Source of the DNA: a virus
Taxonomy: Duplodnaviria; Caudoviricetes
DNA: 64,000 bases
IMG/VR virus record: IMGVR_UViG_3300028888_000047
Location: 224,001-288,000 of that record
Strand: one strand, 5' to 3'
Shown here: positions 5,739-12,571 of the stretch, piece after piece
How the letters are laid out: each line of letters opens with the position of its first letter
How positions within the stretch are numbered: the stretch's first letter is position 1
Made by a program: the position numbers and the translations under genes
The notes under the pieces: model-generated
Seen by the model: the letters and a program-made list of their open reading frames with translations, nothing else
Databases searched by the model: none
What the model was told of the DNA's origin: nothing

Positions 5739-5770
5739 TCTTTAAGGTTAAATAATGTTAAAATAATCTG

Positions 5771-5858
5771 TTATGAGTGCAAGATTCGAACTTGCGGTGA
5801 GTTATTAACTCACACCGGAGCCAGAATCCGGCGCCTTAAACCCCTCGGCCAACTCACA
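5771..5858 (-). tRNA. tRNA with CTG anticodon (nominal Gln), long variable arm
   Basis: Acceptor TGTGAGT/ACTCATA; anticodon arm CCGGA-TTCTGGC-TCCGG; V arm GTGAGTT-AAT-AACTCAC; T arm GCAAG-TTCGAAT-CTTGC; no encoded CCA. Confidence 0.85.
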
Positions 5859-5979: not shown

Positions 5980-6216
5980 CTAATCCCACCCCCATATTTC
6001 ATGTGACATTGGAAACCTCATTGACATTCTTTTCACAAAACTATCATTATACCATTTTTTCTTCCTGAAATACCATTTAAATTTACTATGATTTCTTCCT
6101 AAGACATGAGCAGTTGTTTTTCTCCATGACTGCCTGGCATACCAAGGTCTCTTTGTCTTTTTCAACATTTTTCTCCAAAACTTTTTTGGGGTGTTGAATT
6201 TTTTGCCTTTACTCAT
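5980..6216 (-). CDS. Highly basic Trp-rich small protein, 78 aa
   Basis: Start reassigned to MSKGKKFNTPKK because the longer track ORF overlaps a tRNA. Confidence 0.65.
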   Translation of the reverse strand: MSKGKKFNTPKKFWRKMLKKTKRPWYARQSWRKTTAHVLGRNHSKFKWYFRKKKWYNDSFVKRMSMRFPMSHEIWGWD

Positions 6217-6221
6217 ATTTG

Positions 6222-6296
6222 CCGGGGCAAACCGAGTCGAACGGTTTCTAGGAGTTCCAAAGGCTCCTGTGACATTTGCCGATACACCATACCCCG
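6222..6296 (-). tRNA. tRNA-Gln(TTG)
   Basis: Acceptor CGGGGTA/TGCCCCG; anticodon arm GGAGC-CTTTGGA-ACTCC; T arm AACCG-TTCGACT-CGGTT; G73. Confidence 0.8.
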
Positions 6297-6344
6297 TTAT
6301 TTGAAATGCCATTACACCATAGGGCAGTCCTATTACTCATATAC

Positions 6345-6605: not shown

Positions 6606-6610
6606 AAATT

Positions 6611-6894
6611 ACTGTTAAACGAAATTAAGTCATAGAATCATACACTGTTTATTTTGGATTCGGTATCAAGCTCCAAAGCACACAACGGTTGCATTTTCGA
6701 TTCAAGCTTTTGCCACTTTCACTAGGAAAGTCGGATGCGTATACACCTAGGTATACGGTTACGGTTCGTGTCTTCCGATTTTATCGCAGGAGAGTGTGTC
6801 GAGGTGTTTTATCTTATCAATACTCCCTCAGTAAAGGTGAATAACTTCTTTACCTATTGTGCAGGGAGACCTTTTCAACTTTCCGCTTAACAGT
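6611..6894 (-). ncRNA. Candidate large structured ncRNA (~285 nt)
   Basis: Terminal stem ACTGTTAAGCGGAA/TTTCGTTTAACAGT enclosing at least 6 further stems; GC-richer than the genome; no long ORF. Confidence 0.55.
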
Positions 6895-7027
6895 TATTTT
6901 CTCCTTGGATGGGCTTTTTATTTTGCATATTAGCCCACCTAGTCTCTATTTTTTCCCTTAATCTCTTTTGGCGATTAATCTCATTCTGCCAAATTACAGG
7001 GTTTTCTACATCTAGTAAAACTTTCAT
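6887..7027 (-). CDS. Small ORF, 46 aa (not in ORF track)
   Basis: MKVLLDVENPVIWQNEINRQKRLREKIETRWANMQNKKPIQGENNC*, A-rich upstream context. Confidence 0.45.
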   Translation of the reverse strand: MKVLLDVENPVIWQNEINRQKRLREKIETRWANMQNKKPIQGENNC

Positions 7028-7062
7028 TTTTTGCAAAAATTTTAGGAAAGAATTTTATATCT

Positions 7063-7165
7063 ACCGCCGTGTCTACCAATTCCACCATACTACGGATAGA
7101 TATGGTTGTCTATTTCCCGTAGCAATGGGATTCGAACCCATACGGCTCATTTCGTCCAGCGGTTT
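7063..7165 (-). ncRNA. Circularly permuted tRNA-Leu-like element lacking an anticodon loop
   Basis: 3' half (7165-7117) precedes 5' half (7094-7063) in transcription; the halves pair into a full acceptor stem and anticodon stem. Confidence 0.75.
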
Positions 7166-7169
7166 CCTT

Positions 7170-7385
7170 GCTTAATTATTACTTGCTGTTACTTTCCTTG
7201 TTTTATATTTTAACCTTTGCCAAGGTTGAGAATTTTCAATGTTGCCTAATATACGCGATTTCCGAAGTCCTCGTTTAAATTAGGCACTTGGGGTGAACTT
7301 GATTTTCCTAGCCGCATTGAGGAAACTCTCCCAGGTCTAACGACCACCAAACACCCATAAAACTCATCGCGTTGCCCTAGTTAGT
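7170..7385 (-). ncRNA. Candidate structured RNA upstream of the permuted element
   Basis: Stems TGCCTAAT/ATTAGGCA, GAGAGTTT..TCAATG/CATTGA.AATTCTC, AACCTT/AAGGTT; no ORF. Confidence 0.4.
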
Positions 7386-7389
7386 AGCG

Positions 7390-7473: not shown

Positions 7474-7527
7474 ATTTTTGGTAGGGTATGTTACCTATAT
7501 AGTTCCTTACCCCACCATTTTCATTTA

Positions 7528-7559
7528 CAAAGATACAAAAAATAATTGAAAAAAAGAAA
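7528..7559 (-). promoter_or_regulatory. Bacteroidota-type promoter driving the tRNA cluster
   Basis: TTTC-N20-TATCTTTG. Confidence 0.7.
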
Positions 7560-11400: not shown

Positions 11401-12099
11401 TTAATCTATTGTAGCACTGCTGCTTGTATTAGTTAAATCAATACCGGTATCTGCCTTATATTCCTCATTAAGAGAAGCCATAGACTTTTCAATGCTTGCA
11501 TCCAAAGCCAAACTTGCTGTTGCAATATCTGCTGCACATCTATAAGCAGTAACACCAGTACTAATTACATCATAGTTGTTATAAAACTTCTTCTTGGTGG
11601 TGAAACCTTTAAATTTGAAATTAAGATTGTCCGCATCTTTTGCATCTGATAAATCATTTCCCAAGTAAATGAAGCTCCAATTGTATTTTTCAGTTTGTTC
11701 TTTAATTCTATCCTTAATATCTTTAAGTCTATATTCAGTAGAAGAGTTTTCTCCACCATCTGTAATAACAACAATAAGGTTCTTTGAAGGTCTTTCTTCC
11801 TCGGGCATATCAGCAAGCCACTTGCCAACATCATCAATTGCCGTTCCTAAGCCATCCCACAACTTAGTCATGCCTCCTACTTTATAGTCAATATCCTTTA
11901 CCTCATCAAGTTTCTTACCCAAGTAAATTTGCTTTACGTCGCTTGCAAATTCATAAAGAGATACAATACATTCTCCATCCTTAACTGCTTTCTGTTCCTC
12001 AATGGTTTTCTTGAAACCTCCAACGACATCCTTTTCGCTACCTGCCATTGAACCCGATGAGTCTATGACAAATGCAACATGTATAAGTTTTTCTTTCAT
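11401..12099 (-). CDS. von Willebrand factor A domain protein
   Basis: DSSGSM MIDAS motif, GMT, ITDGGEN. Confidence 0.9.
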   Translation of the reverse strand: MKEKLIHVAFVIDSSGSMAGSEKDVVGGFKKTIEEQKAVKDGECIVSLYEFASDVKQIYLGKKLDEVKDIDYKVGGMTKLWDGLGTAIDDVGKWLADMPEEERPSKNLIVVITDGGENSSTEYRLKDIKDRIKEQTEKYNWSFIYLGNDLSDAKDADNLNFKFKGFTTKKKFYNNYDVISTGVTAYRCAADIATASLALDASIEKSMASLNEEYKADTGIDLTNTSSSATID

Positions 12100-12112: not shown

Positions 12113-12571
12113 TTATTTATTATTTTTCTTTTCTTTCTTTGCCAAACGTTCCTCTTCCTTTCTTCTTTTTTCCTCATCTTCAATTTGCTCAATAACAATG
12201 TACGATTGTTCAGCTACATCAACATAATTTGGATATTTCCTTCTCATTCTAAAAATTTCCTTTGAAAAATCACTTTCCACAAGAAGTTTATCCTTTTCTG
12301 TATCATATGATATATTTGATATTGCACCTTCCATTAACAGGTGTTTATGTTCGTCTGTTAACCTATCGAAAGCTTCTTCGTAAACTGTTAACACAACATC
12401 TTTCTTCGTTAAGAAATGTGTTGTTGCATTTGCCCTTTGTACCTTAAGAATTGATTTTGCTTTTGTTGTTGAAATGACTTTTAAATCAATTCCCATTTGT
12501 GCCAATGATGTATCTTCAAATTTTTCTTGTGCCAATTCTGCAATATCGGCTGATGTTTCAAATAACTTCAT
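12113..12571 (-). CDS. Phage metallopeptidase-like protein without intact HExxH
   Basis: DVVLTVYEEAFDRLTDEHKHLLMEGAISNISYD pattern. Confidence 0.45.
   Translation of the reverse strand: MKLFETSADIAELAQEKFEDTSLAQMGIDLKVISTTKAKSILKVQRANATTHFLTKKDVVLTVYEEAFDRLTDEHKHLLMEGAISNISYDTEKDKLLVESDFSKEIFRMRRKYPNYVDVAEQSYIVIEQIEDEEKRRKEEERLAKKEKKNNK

What the first reader, a model, noticed from the sequence alone, without database searches (positions are those of the whole stretch)
7063..7165. Circularly permuted tRNA-Leu-like RNA with no anticodon loop, inside a phage tRNA operon
Seen (minus strand, in transcription order): a tRNA 3' half AA-ACCGC-TGGACGAAATGAGCCGT-ATGGG-TTCGAAT-CCCAT-TGCTACG-G, a 22-nt linker GAAATAGACAACCATATCTATC, then a tRNA 5' half CGTAGTA-TG-GTG-GAATTGGTAGA-CAC-G-GCGGT. 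The halves give a 7-bp acceptor stem (CGTAGTA/TGCTACG) plus a C-1:G73 pair, a perfect 5-bp anticodon stem (GCGGT/ACCGC), a canonical T loop, a Leu-type D arm and a long variable region. The linker itself forms a hairpin (ATAGA/TCTAT) capping the acceptor end. Both breaks fall at the anticodon loop, and no anticodon can be rebuilt from the flanks. It lies between intact Leu(CAA) and Leu(TAG) genes. Established: permuted tRNA genes occur in some algae and in the archaeon Thermofilum and use BHB splicing; permuted two-piece tmRNAs have the same topology; bacterial LeuRS and SerRS largely ignore the anticodon. I know of no phage example. Inference: RNase P/Z processing could give a two-piece, anticodon-less tRNA mimic, or it is a tRNA-like domain docked into a larger RNA through its anticodon stem. 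Possible roles are a decoy for anticodon nucleases or synthetases, or a tmRNA-like domain.
Basis: partly seen in the sequence, partly recalled or inferred. Interest (0 to 1): 0.92.

Follow-up and report, generated by a model that had tools for sequence, protein, structure and literature searches.

The report
Phage tRNA-shaped Y-RNA-like small RNA
This is a real, conserved gene for a small RNA that folds like a leucine tRNA written in rotated order, with a capped acceptor end and no anticodon loop. A short "handle" clamps it shut, and that handle travels with a Ro60-like ring protein in many phages, so it is most likely a new kind of Y RNA and not a broken or split tRNA.

Summary
Window 7063-7165 (minus strand) holds a tRNA 3' half, a hairpin linker and a tRNA 5' half. 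Rejoined in silico, they give an 86-nt class II (Leu-type) cloverleaf.

It is neither decay nor misassembly. Seven further independent assemblies carry the same rotated order. 92% of base-pair cells are kept, against 40-47% in slid controls, and 12 of 26 pairs show double compensatory changes.

The true unit is larger, 7044-7198. The anticodon stem opens into an internal loop closed by a covarying 7-bp helix that is followed by an invariant ACAGCAA. This handle recurs about 11 times in the phage's tRNA arrays, around other cargo.

The topology (variable arm, T arm, capped acceptor, D arm) is that of YrlA, the tRNA-like Y RNA of bacteria and mycobacteriophages. The unit nevertheless fails YrlA's sequence tests.

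The phage encodes a DUF2828/DUF7788 protein whose model matches Ro60 over its full length. Handle RNAs are enriched beside such genes in 61 viral loci.

Best reading: a Y-RNA-like adaptor or decoy.

This scan had already reached the same reading on other DNA, including the orthologue in a 401-kb phage.

The parts
7192..7198 (-). Handle helix, 5' strand (AGGAAAG)
   Evidence: Pairs with 7044-7050. It covaries among orthologues and paralogues.
7183..7189 (-). Invariant unpaired ACAGCAA, 2 nt after the 5' strand
   Evidence: Identical in all eight orthologues except one ACAGCAT. Present in about 11 paralogous elements of this genome and in related phages.
7164..7182 (-). 5' side of the internal loop; variable in sequence and length
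   Evidence: Alignment A3.
7159..7163 (-). Anticodon-stem 3' strand (ACCGC)
   Evidence: Pairs with 7063-7067. One double compensatory change in L008; 92.5% of cells paired.
7142..7158 (-). Long variable region (class II type)
   Evidence: A weak stem here. Relatives have clear hairpins of differing sequence at the same place.
7125..7141 (-). T arm: 5-bp stem and TTCGAAT loop
   Evidence: The loop is invariant. Three of the five stem pairs show double compensatory changes; 97.5% of cells paired.
7117..7124 (-). Acceptor-like helix, 3' strand (7 bp plus the extra C:G pair)
   Evidence: Pairs with 7088-7095. All six counted pairs show double changes among orthologues.
7096..7116 (-). Cap of the acceptor helix: a 3-nt bulge plus a 5-bp hairpin with an 8-nt loop
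   Evidence: RNAfold. Specific to this phage; relatives have 4-8-nt loops here.
7088..7095 (-). Acceptor-like helix, 5' strand
7068..7087 (-). U8-G9, the Leu-type D arm (3-bp stem, 11-nt loop with GG) and G26
   Evidence: Nearly invariant in the eight orthologues. The 24-mer across the D arm and anticodon stem is identical to true tRNA-Leu genes of unrelated phages.
7063..7067 (-). Anticodon-stem 5' strand (GCGGT)
7051..7062 (-). 3' side of the internal loop; A-rich, ending in AAAU-like letters
   Evidence: The A-rich run just before the 3' strand recurs across the family.
7044..7050 (-). Handle helix, 3' strand (CTTTCCT), followed by TAA
7212..7227 (-). Upstream 6-bp hairpin conserved in this lineage; role unknown
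   Evidence: Identical in L008 and present in L010, L042, L063 and L052. Absent in L011, L037 and the paralogues.

Best explanation
Window 7044-7198 (minus strand) encodes a small non-coding RNA of about 155 nt, co-transcribed with tRNA genes. It has two modules.

Module 1 is a handle: a 7-bp helix joining the two ends, an unpaired ACAGCAA just after the 5' strand, and an A-rich 3' side.

Module 2 is a cargo: a class II, leucine-type tRNA body in rotated order (variable arm, T arm, capped acceptor helix, D arm) that joins the handle through its anticodon stem. It keeps the D-loop/T-loop elbow but has no anticodon loop and no free acceptor end, so it cannot decode or be charged as it stands.

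By analogy with Ro60 and its Y RNAs, especially YrlA, the handle is most likely bound by the phage's Ro60-shaped DUF2828/DUF7788 protein. The tRNA-shaped cargo would then recruit or sequester a factor that recognises tRNA shape, such as a synthetase, a tRNA nuclease, or a repair or modification enzyme.

Shown here: the RNA structure and its conservation, the handle family, the Ro60-like predicted fold, and the genomic co-occurrence. Inferred: transcription and processing, protein binding, and the cargo's target.
For: Structure:
- The reordered halves give a class II cloverleaf.
- Eight orthologues from independent assemblies keep the rotated order.
- On alignment A3, 92.3% of cells pair, against 40-47% when partners are slid. 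12 of 26 pairs carry changes on both sides, and 0 of 500 shuffles reach the observed values.
- A strand paired with its own partner pairs far better than with another orthologue's partner: 0.92 against 0.48 for the acceptor helix.
- The T loop, D arm and elbow nucleotides are invariant.

Handle family:
- The same helix plus ACAGCAA encloses other cargo about 11 times in this genome, always on the minus strand and in the tRNA arrays. Two of these cargoes are further rotated tRNA bodies.
- The handle recurs in related phages, while a reversed-pattern control finds none.

YrlA likeness:
- The published YrlA order is V, T, closed acceptor stem-loop, D (PMC4201824).
- The paralogue at genome 157680-157790 matches Rfam YrlA end to end at 38.2 bits, E about 1e-7, below the 69-bit cut-off.

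Protein partner:
- A 534-aa DUF2828 (25.6 bits, below cut-off) plus DUF7788 (69.7 bits) protein is encoded on the same strand.
- Both complete relatives encode orthologues.
- The AlphaFold model has pLDDT 84.5 and pTM 0.81. Its 12 best PDB matches are all full-length Ro60/TROVE structures, with E from 6e-6 to 5e-3 and TM 0.36-0.57.

Linkage:
- In 61 viral loci holding homologues (plus or minus 6 kb), stem-closed ACAGCAA elements number 50 on the gene strand. Scrambled motifs give 7-11 on that strand, and ACAGCAA gives 10 on the opposite strand.
- In distant homologues (22-45% identity) the elements sit 13-400 nt from the gene.
- An unrelated phage with handle RNAs (L006/L007) also encodes a homologue. 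Two handle-free phage fragments do not.
- The phage also has RtcB, the ligase that accompanies rsr-yrlA in bacteria (PMC7790460 abstract).
Against:
- No binding evidence of any kind exists.
- In this genome the DUF2828 gene lies about 45 kb from this unit and about 11 kb from the nearest handle copy.
- The handle lacks the known Ro60-binding motif GNCGAAN0-1G. No TROVE (PF05731) match exists in this genome or four relatives.
- The Rfam YrlA model does not match this unit even at E 10.
- Fold-match TM-scores are moderate, about 0.5.
- Many of the 61 loci come from related rumen or gut jumbo phages, so the co-occurrence counts are not fully independent.
- One orthologue (L010) has a weakened anticodon stem and a T-stem mismatch.
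Confidence: 0.6

Rival explanations
1. A free-standing tRNA-shaped decoy or sponge. The handle is only a clamp that stabilises the RNA and defines its ends. The RNA acts alone on a host tRNA-binding factor, with no DUF2828 protein involved.
For: The most conserved parts are the tRNA elbow, D arm and T loop. In this genome the unit lies 45 kb from the DUF2828 gene. Cargo differs between copies while the handle is constant.
Against: An invariant unpaired 7-mer next to a freely covarying helix looks like a protein-recognition site. Handle RNAs sit directly beside DUF2828 genes in distant phages.
Confidence: 0.2
2. A cis-acting processing or stability element of the tRNA operon, for example a leader structure guiding RNase P or RNase E maturation of the next tRNA. 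On this view it is not a trans-acting RNA.
For: In relatives the handle ends 7-15 nt before the +1 of tRNA-Leu(TAG). Most paralogous copies end 5-10 nt before a tRNA or the tmRNA.
Against: In this window a 435-nt insert separates the unit from the next tRNA, yet the unit is intact. In L011 it has its own promoter-like motif and no upstream tRNA. In distant phages handle RNAs sit beside DUF2828 genes away from tRNAs. A full tRNA body is not needed for a leader.
Confidence: 0.1
3. RNase P and RNase Z open the capped acceptor and give a two-piece, anticodon-less tRNA-like molecule that may receive CCA and an amino acid. smegmatis YrlA or two-piece tmRNA.
For: This phage's copy has a 7-bp acceptor plus a 22-nt capped extension. 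M. smegmatis YrlA, which has a 7-bp stem, is cut by RNase P and receives CCA (PMC4201824).
Against: In orthologues the acceptor is 3-8 bp and closed by 4-8-nt loops, including GAAA tetraloops, so an open acceptor is not the conserved feature. There is no G3:U70 and no tag frame. The phage has its own tmRNA.
Confidence: 0.05
4. Two decayed tandem tRNA-Leu genes, an assembly artefact, or a permuted tRNA gene or permuted intron-exon that matures into a decoding tRNA.
For: Halves of tandem copies of one gene would be complementary by descent. The unit lies between two tRNA-Leu genes.
Against: The order is kept in eight assemblies, with double compensatory changes in every helix. The acceptor is capped by tetraloops. 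No anticodon loop or U33 can be rebuilt. No group I intron is found. The halves are not close copies of any of the phage's four tRNA-Leu genes.
Confidence: 0.03

Closest known systems
YrlA, the tRNA-like Y RNA bound by bacterial and mycobacteriophage Ro60/Rsr (Rfam RF02553; Chen et al. 2014, PMC4201824)
   Same: The module order is the same: variable region, T arm, closed acceptor stem-loop, D arm. The ends pair into a stem with an adjacent conserved single-stranded motif. The T loop and D loop are tRNA-like. A phage-encoded partner with a Ro60 fold is present. The acceptor stem length varies, and a 7-bp version exists in M. smegmatis.
   Different: The handle motif is ACAGCAA after a 7-bp helix, not GNCGAAN0-1G. 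The predicted partner is DUF2828/DUF7788 and not a TROVE (PF05731) protein. The gene lies in a tRNA operon 45 kb from that protein's gene, not within 4 kb. The cargo is class II (Leu-type D arm, long variable arm). The Rfam model does not match this unit.
Thermus phage phiLo Ro60 with Yrl1/Yrl2 (PMC12135203; PDB 9KOP, 9L5Y)
   Same: A phage-encoded Ro60-fold ring with phage-encoded stem-closed RNAs. It is the best structural match of this phage's DUF2828 protein model.
   Different: Yrl1 and Yrl2 carry the CGAA motif and no tRNA-like domain is described. Binding and PNPase recruitment were shown there; nothing is shown here.
Class I RNAs of dictyostelid social amoebae (PMC7919456; search pattern in PMC5054030)
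   Same: A short covarying stem joins the 5' and 3' ends, followed at once by a conserved motif that contains UUACAGCAA, then a variable interior.
   Different: Class I RNAs are 42-65 nt and eukaryotic, have their own DUSE promoter, and have no reported tRNA-like cargo. They were reported as unique to Dictyostelia. Homology is not tested here.
Permuted tRNA genes (Cyanidioschyzon merolae, Thermofilum) and two-piece tmRNA genes
   Same: The 3' half of a tRNA(-like) body is encoded upstream of the 5' half.
   Different: Those mature into molecules with an open, chargeable acceptor end, and the tRNAs regain an anticodon loop (my knowledge). Here the acceptor is capped, there is no anticodon loop, no G3:U70 and no tag frame.

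Membership tests
YrlA (Rfam RF02553) | Module order V, T arm, closed acceptor stem-loop, D arm, with the ends paired | tested here: met
   Order as published in PMC4201824.
YrlA (Rfam RF02553) | Score at or above the Rfam gathering threshold (69 bits) | tested here: not met
   No match for this unit at E up to 10. The paralogue at genome 157680-157790 reaches 38.2 bits.
YrlA (Rfam RF02553) | Ro60-binding motif GNCGAAN0-1G on the 5' strand | tested here: not met
   The conserved motif is ACAGCAA.
YrlA (Rfam RF02553) | Encoded within about 4 kb of a TROVE-domain Ro60 gene on the same strand | tested here: not met
   No PF05731 match in G000-G004. A Ro60-fold DUF2828 gene lies on the same strand but about 45 kb away.
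YrlA (Rfam RF02553) | Bound by Ro60, and modified by TruB/DusA | not testable with these tools
   Needs RIP/EMSA and modification mapping.
ACAGCAA-handle RNAs linked to DUF2828 genes (unpublished as far as I could find; noted repeatedly by this scan) | A 6-8-bp covarying terminal helix, ACAGCAA 0-3 nt after the 5' strand, and a variable interior | tested here: met
ACAGCAA-handle RNAs linked to DUF2828 genes (unpublished as far as I could find; noted repeatedly by this scan) | A DUF2828/DUF7788 (Ro60-fold) gene in the same genome | tested here: met
   Enrichment near such genes.
Dictyostelid Class I RNA | A short terminal stem plus an adjacent 11-nt motif (CCUUACAGCAA in D. discoideum) | tested here: inconclusive
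   The stem is present. 7-9 of the 11 motif letters are shared (UAACAGCAA here). The pattern was read from PMC5054030.
Dictyostelid Class I RNA | Length 42-65 nt, DUSE promoter, dictyostelid host | tested here: not met
   The unit is 155 nt, in a phage tRNA operon.
Two-piece (permuted) tmRNA | G3:U70 alanine identity, a D loop without a stem, and a tag reading frame with pseudoknots | tested here: not met
   Pair 3:70 is U:A and a true D stem is present. ARAGORN and Rfam find no tmRNA here.
Permuted tRNA gene | Matures to a tRNA with a 7-nt anticodon loop and a free CCA end | tested here: not met
   The flanks hold no U33 or anticodon. In orthologues the acceptor is capped by tetraloops. Maturation itself is not testable here.
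Group I intron-split tRNA-Leu / permuted intron-exon | A group I intron core flanking the exon halves | tested here: not met
   RF00028 gives no hit in the region, and its best hit in the genome is 13 bits elsewhere. Relatives lack the long flanks altogether.

The most novel reading that the evidence does not exclude
The ACAGCAA-handle RNAs and the DUF2828 ring protein form a separate, undescribed branch of the Ro60/Y-RNA world. It would be shared by jumbo phages (and, per earlier notes of this scan, giant viruses) and possibly be homologous to the unexplained Class I RNAs of social amoebae. In it, interchangeable tRNA-shaped cargoes, such as this leucine-type one, would aim the ring at particular tRNA-handling enzymes or tRNA-cleaving host defences.
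Probability: 0.4. Interest if true: 0.85.

Novelty: new variant of a known kind. Interest (0 to 1): 0.7.

Why it matters
Y RNAs and their tRNA-like modules are known, but what the tRNA-like part does is still open. Here one constant handle carries several different tRNA-derived cargoes within one phage genome. This cargo is a class II, leucine-type body, not the class I-like body of YrlA. The arrangement suggests a modular system in which the cargo sets the target.

A defined pair, the DUF2828 protein and the handle RNA, makes this directly testable by binding assays and pull-downs. It would also give a function to a widespread domain of unknown function, and perhaps to the amoebal Class I RNAs.

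For annotation, such units should not be called tRNA pseudogenes or split tRNAs.

Tried and rejected
- Permuted group I intron-exon, or two intron-split tRNA-Leu genes. This was my first idea. Rfam RF00028 finds nothing here, no U33 or anticodon can be rebuilt, and relatives lack the long flanks.
- tmRNA-like. ARAGORN and Rfam are negative, and the phage has its own tmRNA.
- TROVE Ro60. No PF05731 match in five genomes.
- The vWA ORF in the window (11401-12099) as a Ro60 remnant. Its neighbour 12113-12571 gives only a weak, sub-threshold match to a phage metallopeptidase family (20.0 bits against a 23.7-bit cut-off). The pair may resemble the vWA-metallopeptidase pairing described for jumbo phages (PMC7824862), and nothing about it points to Ro60.
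- An RNase P RNA-like word on the opposite strand of the 435-nt insert. No Rfam support.
- Synteny through the 1199-aa neighbour gene. The relative L003 has no tRNAs there.
- Exact-word searches of viral contigs gave only true tRNA-Leu genes apart from L008.
- PDB sequence search with the DUF2828 protein gave nothing; only the fold search did.
- No covariance model was built; hand-parsed helices and the count of structure pairs were sufficient.

Full report
**1. What is there.** The window is bases 224001-288000 of a 317-kb, about 30% G+C virus record. The record carries 37 tRNA genes, its own one-piece tmRNA and a CUA suppressor tRNA.

It holds an anticodon-stem 3' strand, a long variable region, a canonical T arm, an acceptor 3' strand, a 22-nt linker, an acceptor 5' strand, a Leu-type D arm and an anticodon-stem 5' strand.

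Neither ARAGORN nor Rfam calls it. I joined the halves in tRNA order through a 7-N placeholder loop. ARAGORN then draws an 86-nt class II cloverleaf with score 110.6. RNAfold recovers the acceptor helix and the capping hairpin. The flanks contain no U33 and no rebuildable anticodon.

**2. It is a selected RNA structure.** It is not decay, chance or misassembly. A neighbouring protein and DNA patterns led to homologous units in three viral contigs (L008, L010, L011). A gapped pattern then found four more in metagenome contigs (L037, L042, L063, L052). All eight keep the rotated order.
- On alignment A3, 92.3% of cells in the 26 counted pairs are standard pairs, against 40-47% when partners are slid by 1-3 columns.
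- 12 pairs carry changes on both sides, and no shuffle out of 500 reaches the observed values.
- All six counted acceptor pairs and three of the five T-stem pairs covary.
- A strand paired with its own partner scores 0.92 in the acceptor helix. Paired with another orthologue's partner it scores 0.48.
- The T loop, the D arm and the elbow nucleotides are invariant.
- The halves are not recent copies of any of the phage's four tRNA-Leu genes.

**3. The acceptor end is closed.** In relatives the acceptor-like helix is 3-8 bp long and capped by 4-8 nt, twice by GAAA. The 22-nt hairpin linker of this window is a lineage-specific elaboration of that cap. An open, chargeable acceptor is therefore not the conserved feature. 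This weighs against a two-piece tRNA or tmRNA-like product as the general form.

**4. The unit is larger than reported.** The flanks are conserved. A 7-bp helix (7192-7198 with 7044-7050) closes the whole element. It covaries, with G:C to C:G and A:U to G:C changes in L011, L052 and the paralogues. It is followed after two bases by an invariant, unpaired ACAGCAA.

The same helix plus ACAGCAA occurs about 11 times on the minus strand of this genome's tRNA arrays, around different interiors:
- two further rotated tRNA bodies of class I type (genome 157690-157808 and 171864-171987);
- a normal-order tRNA-like body with a 6-nt anticodon loop;
- a lone T arm;
- short hairpins.

The same pattern recurs in related phages, and a reversed-pattern control finds none. 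The finding is thus one member of a modular family with a constant handle and variable, mostly tRNA-derived, cargo.

**5. Comparison with known RNAs.** The order V, T arm, closed acceptor stem-loop, D arm, with the ends paired and a conserved motif beside the stem, is the published architecture of YrlA. YrlA is the tRNA-like Y RNA bound by Ro60/Rsr in more than 250 bacteria and 22 phages. M. smegmatis YrlA has a 7-bp acceptor, is cut by RNase P and receives CCA (PMC4201824).

One paralogue here matches Rfam YrlA end to end at 38 bits (E about 1e-7), below the 69-bit threshold. The window's unit gets no match. The YrlA motif GNCGAAN0-1G is absent, and no TROVE-domain gene exists in this phage or four relatives. 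The unit therefore works like YrlA in design but fails the family's defining sequence tests.

The handle instead matches the design of dictyostelid Class I RNAs: a short terminal stem directly followed by a motif containing UUACAGCAA, then a variable interior (PMC7919456; pattern in PMC5054030). Whether that is homology or convergence is open.

**6. A candidate protein partner.** A first-stage note on this genome pointed to a DUF2828-vWA protein, and I tested that here.
- The genome encodes a 534-aa protein with DUF2828 (25.6 bits, below cut-off) and DUF7788 (69.7 bits) on the same strand, at about 184.6-186.2 kb.
- Both complete relatives encode orthologues, at 80% and 58% identity.
- A sequence search of the PDB finds nothing.
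- An AlphaFold model from a 41-sequence alignment has pLDDT 84.5 and pTM 0.81.
- Its 12 best PDB matches are all full-length Ro60/TROVE structures: Thermus phage phiLo, Xenopus, human and Deinococcus. E runs from 6e-6 to 5e-3 and TM from 0.36 to 0.57.

In 61 viral loci holding homologues with 6-kb flanks, stem-closed ACAGCAA elements number 50 on the gene strand. Four scrambled motifs give 7-11 on that strand, and ACAGCAA gives 10 on the opposite strand. In the most distant homologues (22-45% identity) the elements lie 13-400 nt from the gene, often in tandem.

An unrelated phage that turned up by chance (L006/L007) also has handle RNAs, one carrying a rotated body with a Leu-type D arm. Its record encodes a DUF2828 homologue. 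Two handle-free phage fragments do not. The phage also encodes RtcB, the ligase that accompanies rsr and yrlA in bacteria.

**7. Most likely mechanism.** The RNA is transcribed with the tRNA operon. A Bacteroidota-type promoter-like motif lies upstream of tRNA-Leu(CAA); that reading of the motif is my own knowledge. The RNA is probably released by the tRNA-processing nucleases. In relatives the handle ends 7-15 nt before the +1 of the next tRNA. This step is inferred.

The handle would then dock on the Ro60-like ring, as Y RNA stems do on Ro60. The tRNA-shaped cargo would present an intact elbow and a long variable arm to a tRNA-recognising factor. phiLo Ro60 with its Yrl RNAs binds host PNPase and dampens it (PMC12135203), which gives a precedent for a phage using such a particle against host RNA enzymes. 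Which factor the leucine-type cargo engages is unknown.

I put 0.6 on this Y-RNA-like reading. The rivals are:
- 0.2 on a free-standing decoy without the protein;
- 0.1 on a purely cis-acting processing element;
- 0.05 on an RNase P-opened two-piece molecule;
- about 0.03 on decay, an artefact or a decoding tRNA.

**8. Limits.** Many of the linked loci come from related rumen or gut phages, so the enrichment is not a phylogenetically corrected statistic. The fold match is from a predicted model.

**9. Relation to earlier notes of this scan.** The scan found this before on other DNA. It had already described the ACAGCAA-handle family with DUF2828 proteins on other genomes, including the orthologue of this very unit in the 401-kb phage. 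I had reached the YrlA-like, repeated-handle reading before opening those notes. The DUF2828 and Class I leads came from them and were tested here.

Noticed in passing
window 5770-5858 (-): An 88-89-nt class II tRNA (long variable arm, Ser/Tyr-like D arm) with anticodon CUG, which ARAGORN calls tRNA-Gln. It is conserved in L008 and L010. A type II body reading a Gln codon is unusual.
   Followed up: no
window 6221-6340 (-): ARAGORN calls a tRNA-Gln(UUG) with its anticodon at position 37, but Rfam's tRNA model does not reach threshold. It is preceded by a partial duplicate of a tRNA 5' part. Relatives have a normal 73-nt gene at this place.
   Followed up: no
window 5980-6216 (-): A 78-aa, very basic small ORF between the two Gln-type tRNA genes, with no Pfam match. 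It is conserved in L010 and absent from L008.
   Followed up: no
window 6606-7040 and 7229-7388 (-): Two non-coding inserts (435 and 160 nt) flank the unit and are absent from all relatives. They have no similar sequence in any fetched locus or elsewhere in the genome. The 435-nt piece folds only weakly better than shuffles, z = -1.7.
   Followed up: partly
window 7476-7535 (-): A promoter-like TTTG...TATCTTTG motif followed by a leader hairpin just before tRNA-Leu(CAA). The hairpin is kept with changed sequence in L008 and L010.
   Followed up: no
G000 171507-171619 (-); L025: A handle element enclosing a normal-order tRNA-like body with a 6-nt anticodon loop (ARAGORN: tRNA-???). It is conserved in the distant relative G004.
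   Followed up: partly
L006 / L007 (about 7040-7190 of L007): An unrelated phage has a handle element whose cargo is a rotated tRNA body with a Leu-type D arm, an 8-bp capped acceptor and a short variable region. Its record encodes a DUF2828 homologue.
   Followed up: partly
L011 4546-5502: After the unit, the tRNA-Leu(TAG) gene looks truncated and is followed by an ORF whose start looks like a TnpB/IS605-type protein. That is my reading and was not tested.
   Followed up: no
L054, L056, L061, L062: Metagenome contigs in which a tRNA-Leu-like 5' half ends at the anticodon stem, followed by an A-rich stretch, a hairpin and ACAGCAA (or ACAGCAG in L062). This may be another topology of the same family.
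   Followed up: no
G000 103617-104807 (-): The phage encodes an RtcB RNA ligase, 207 bits.
   Followed up: no
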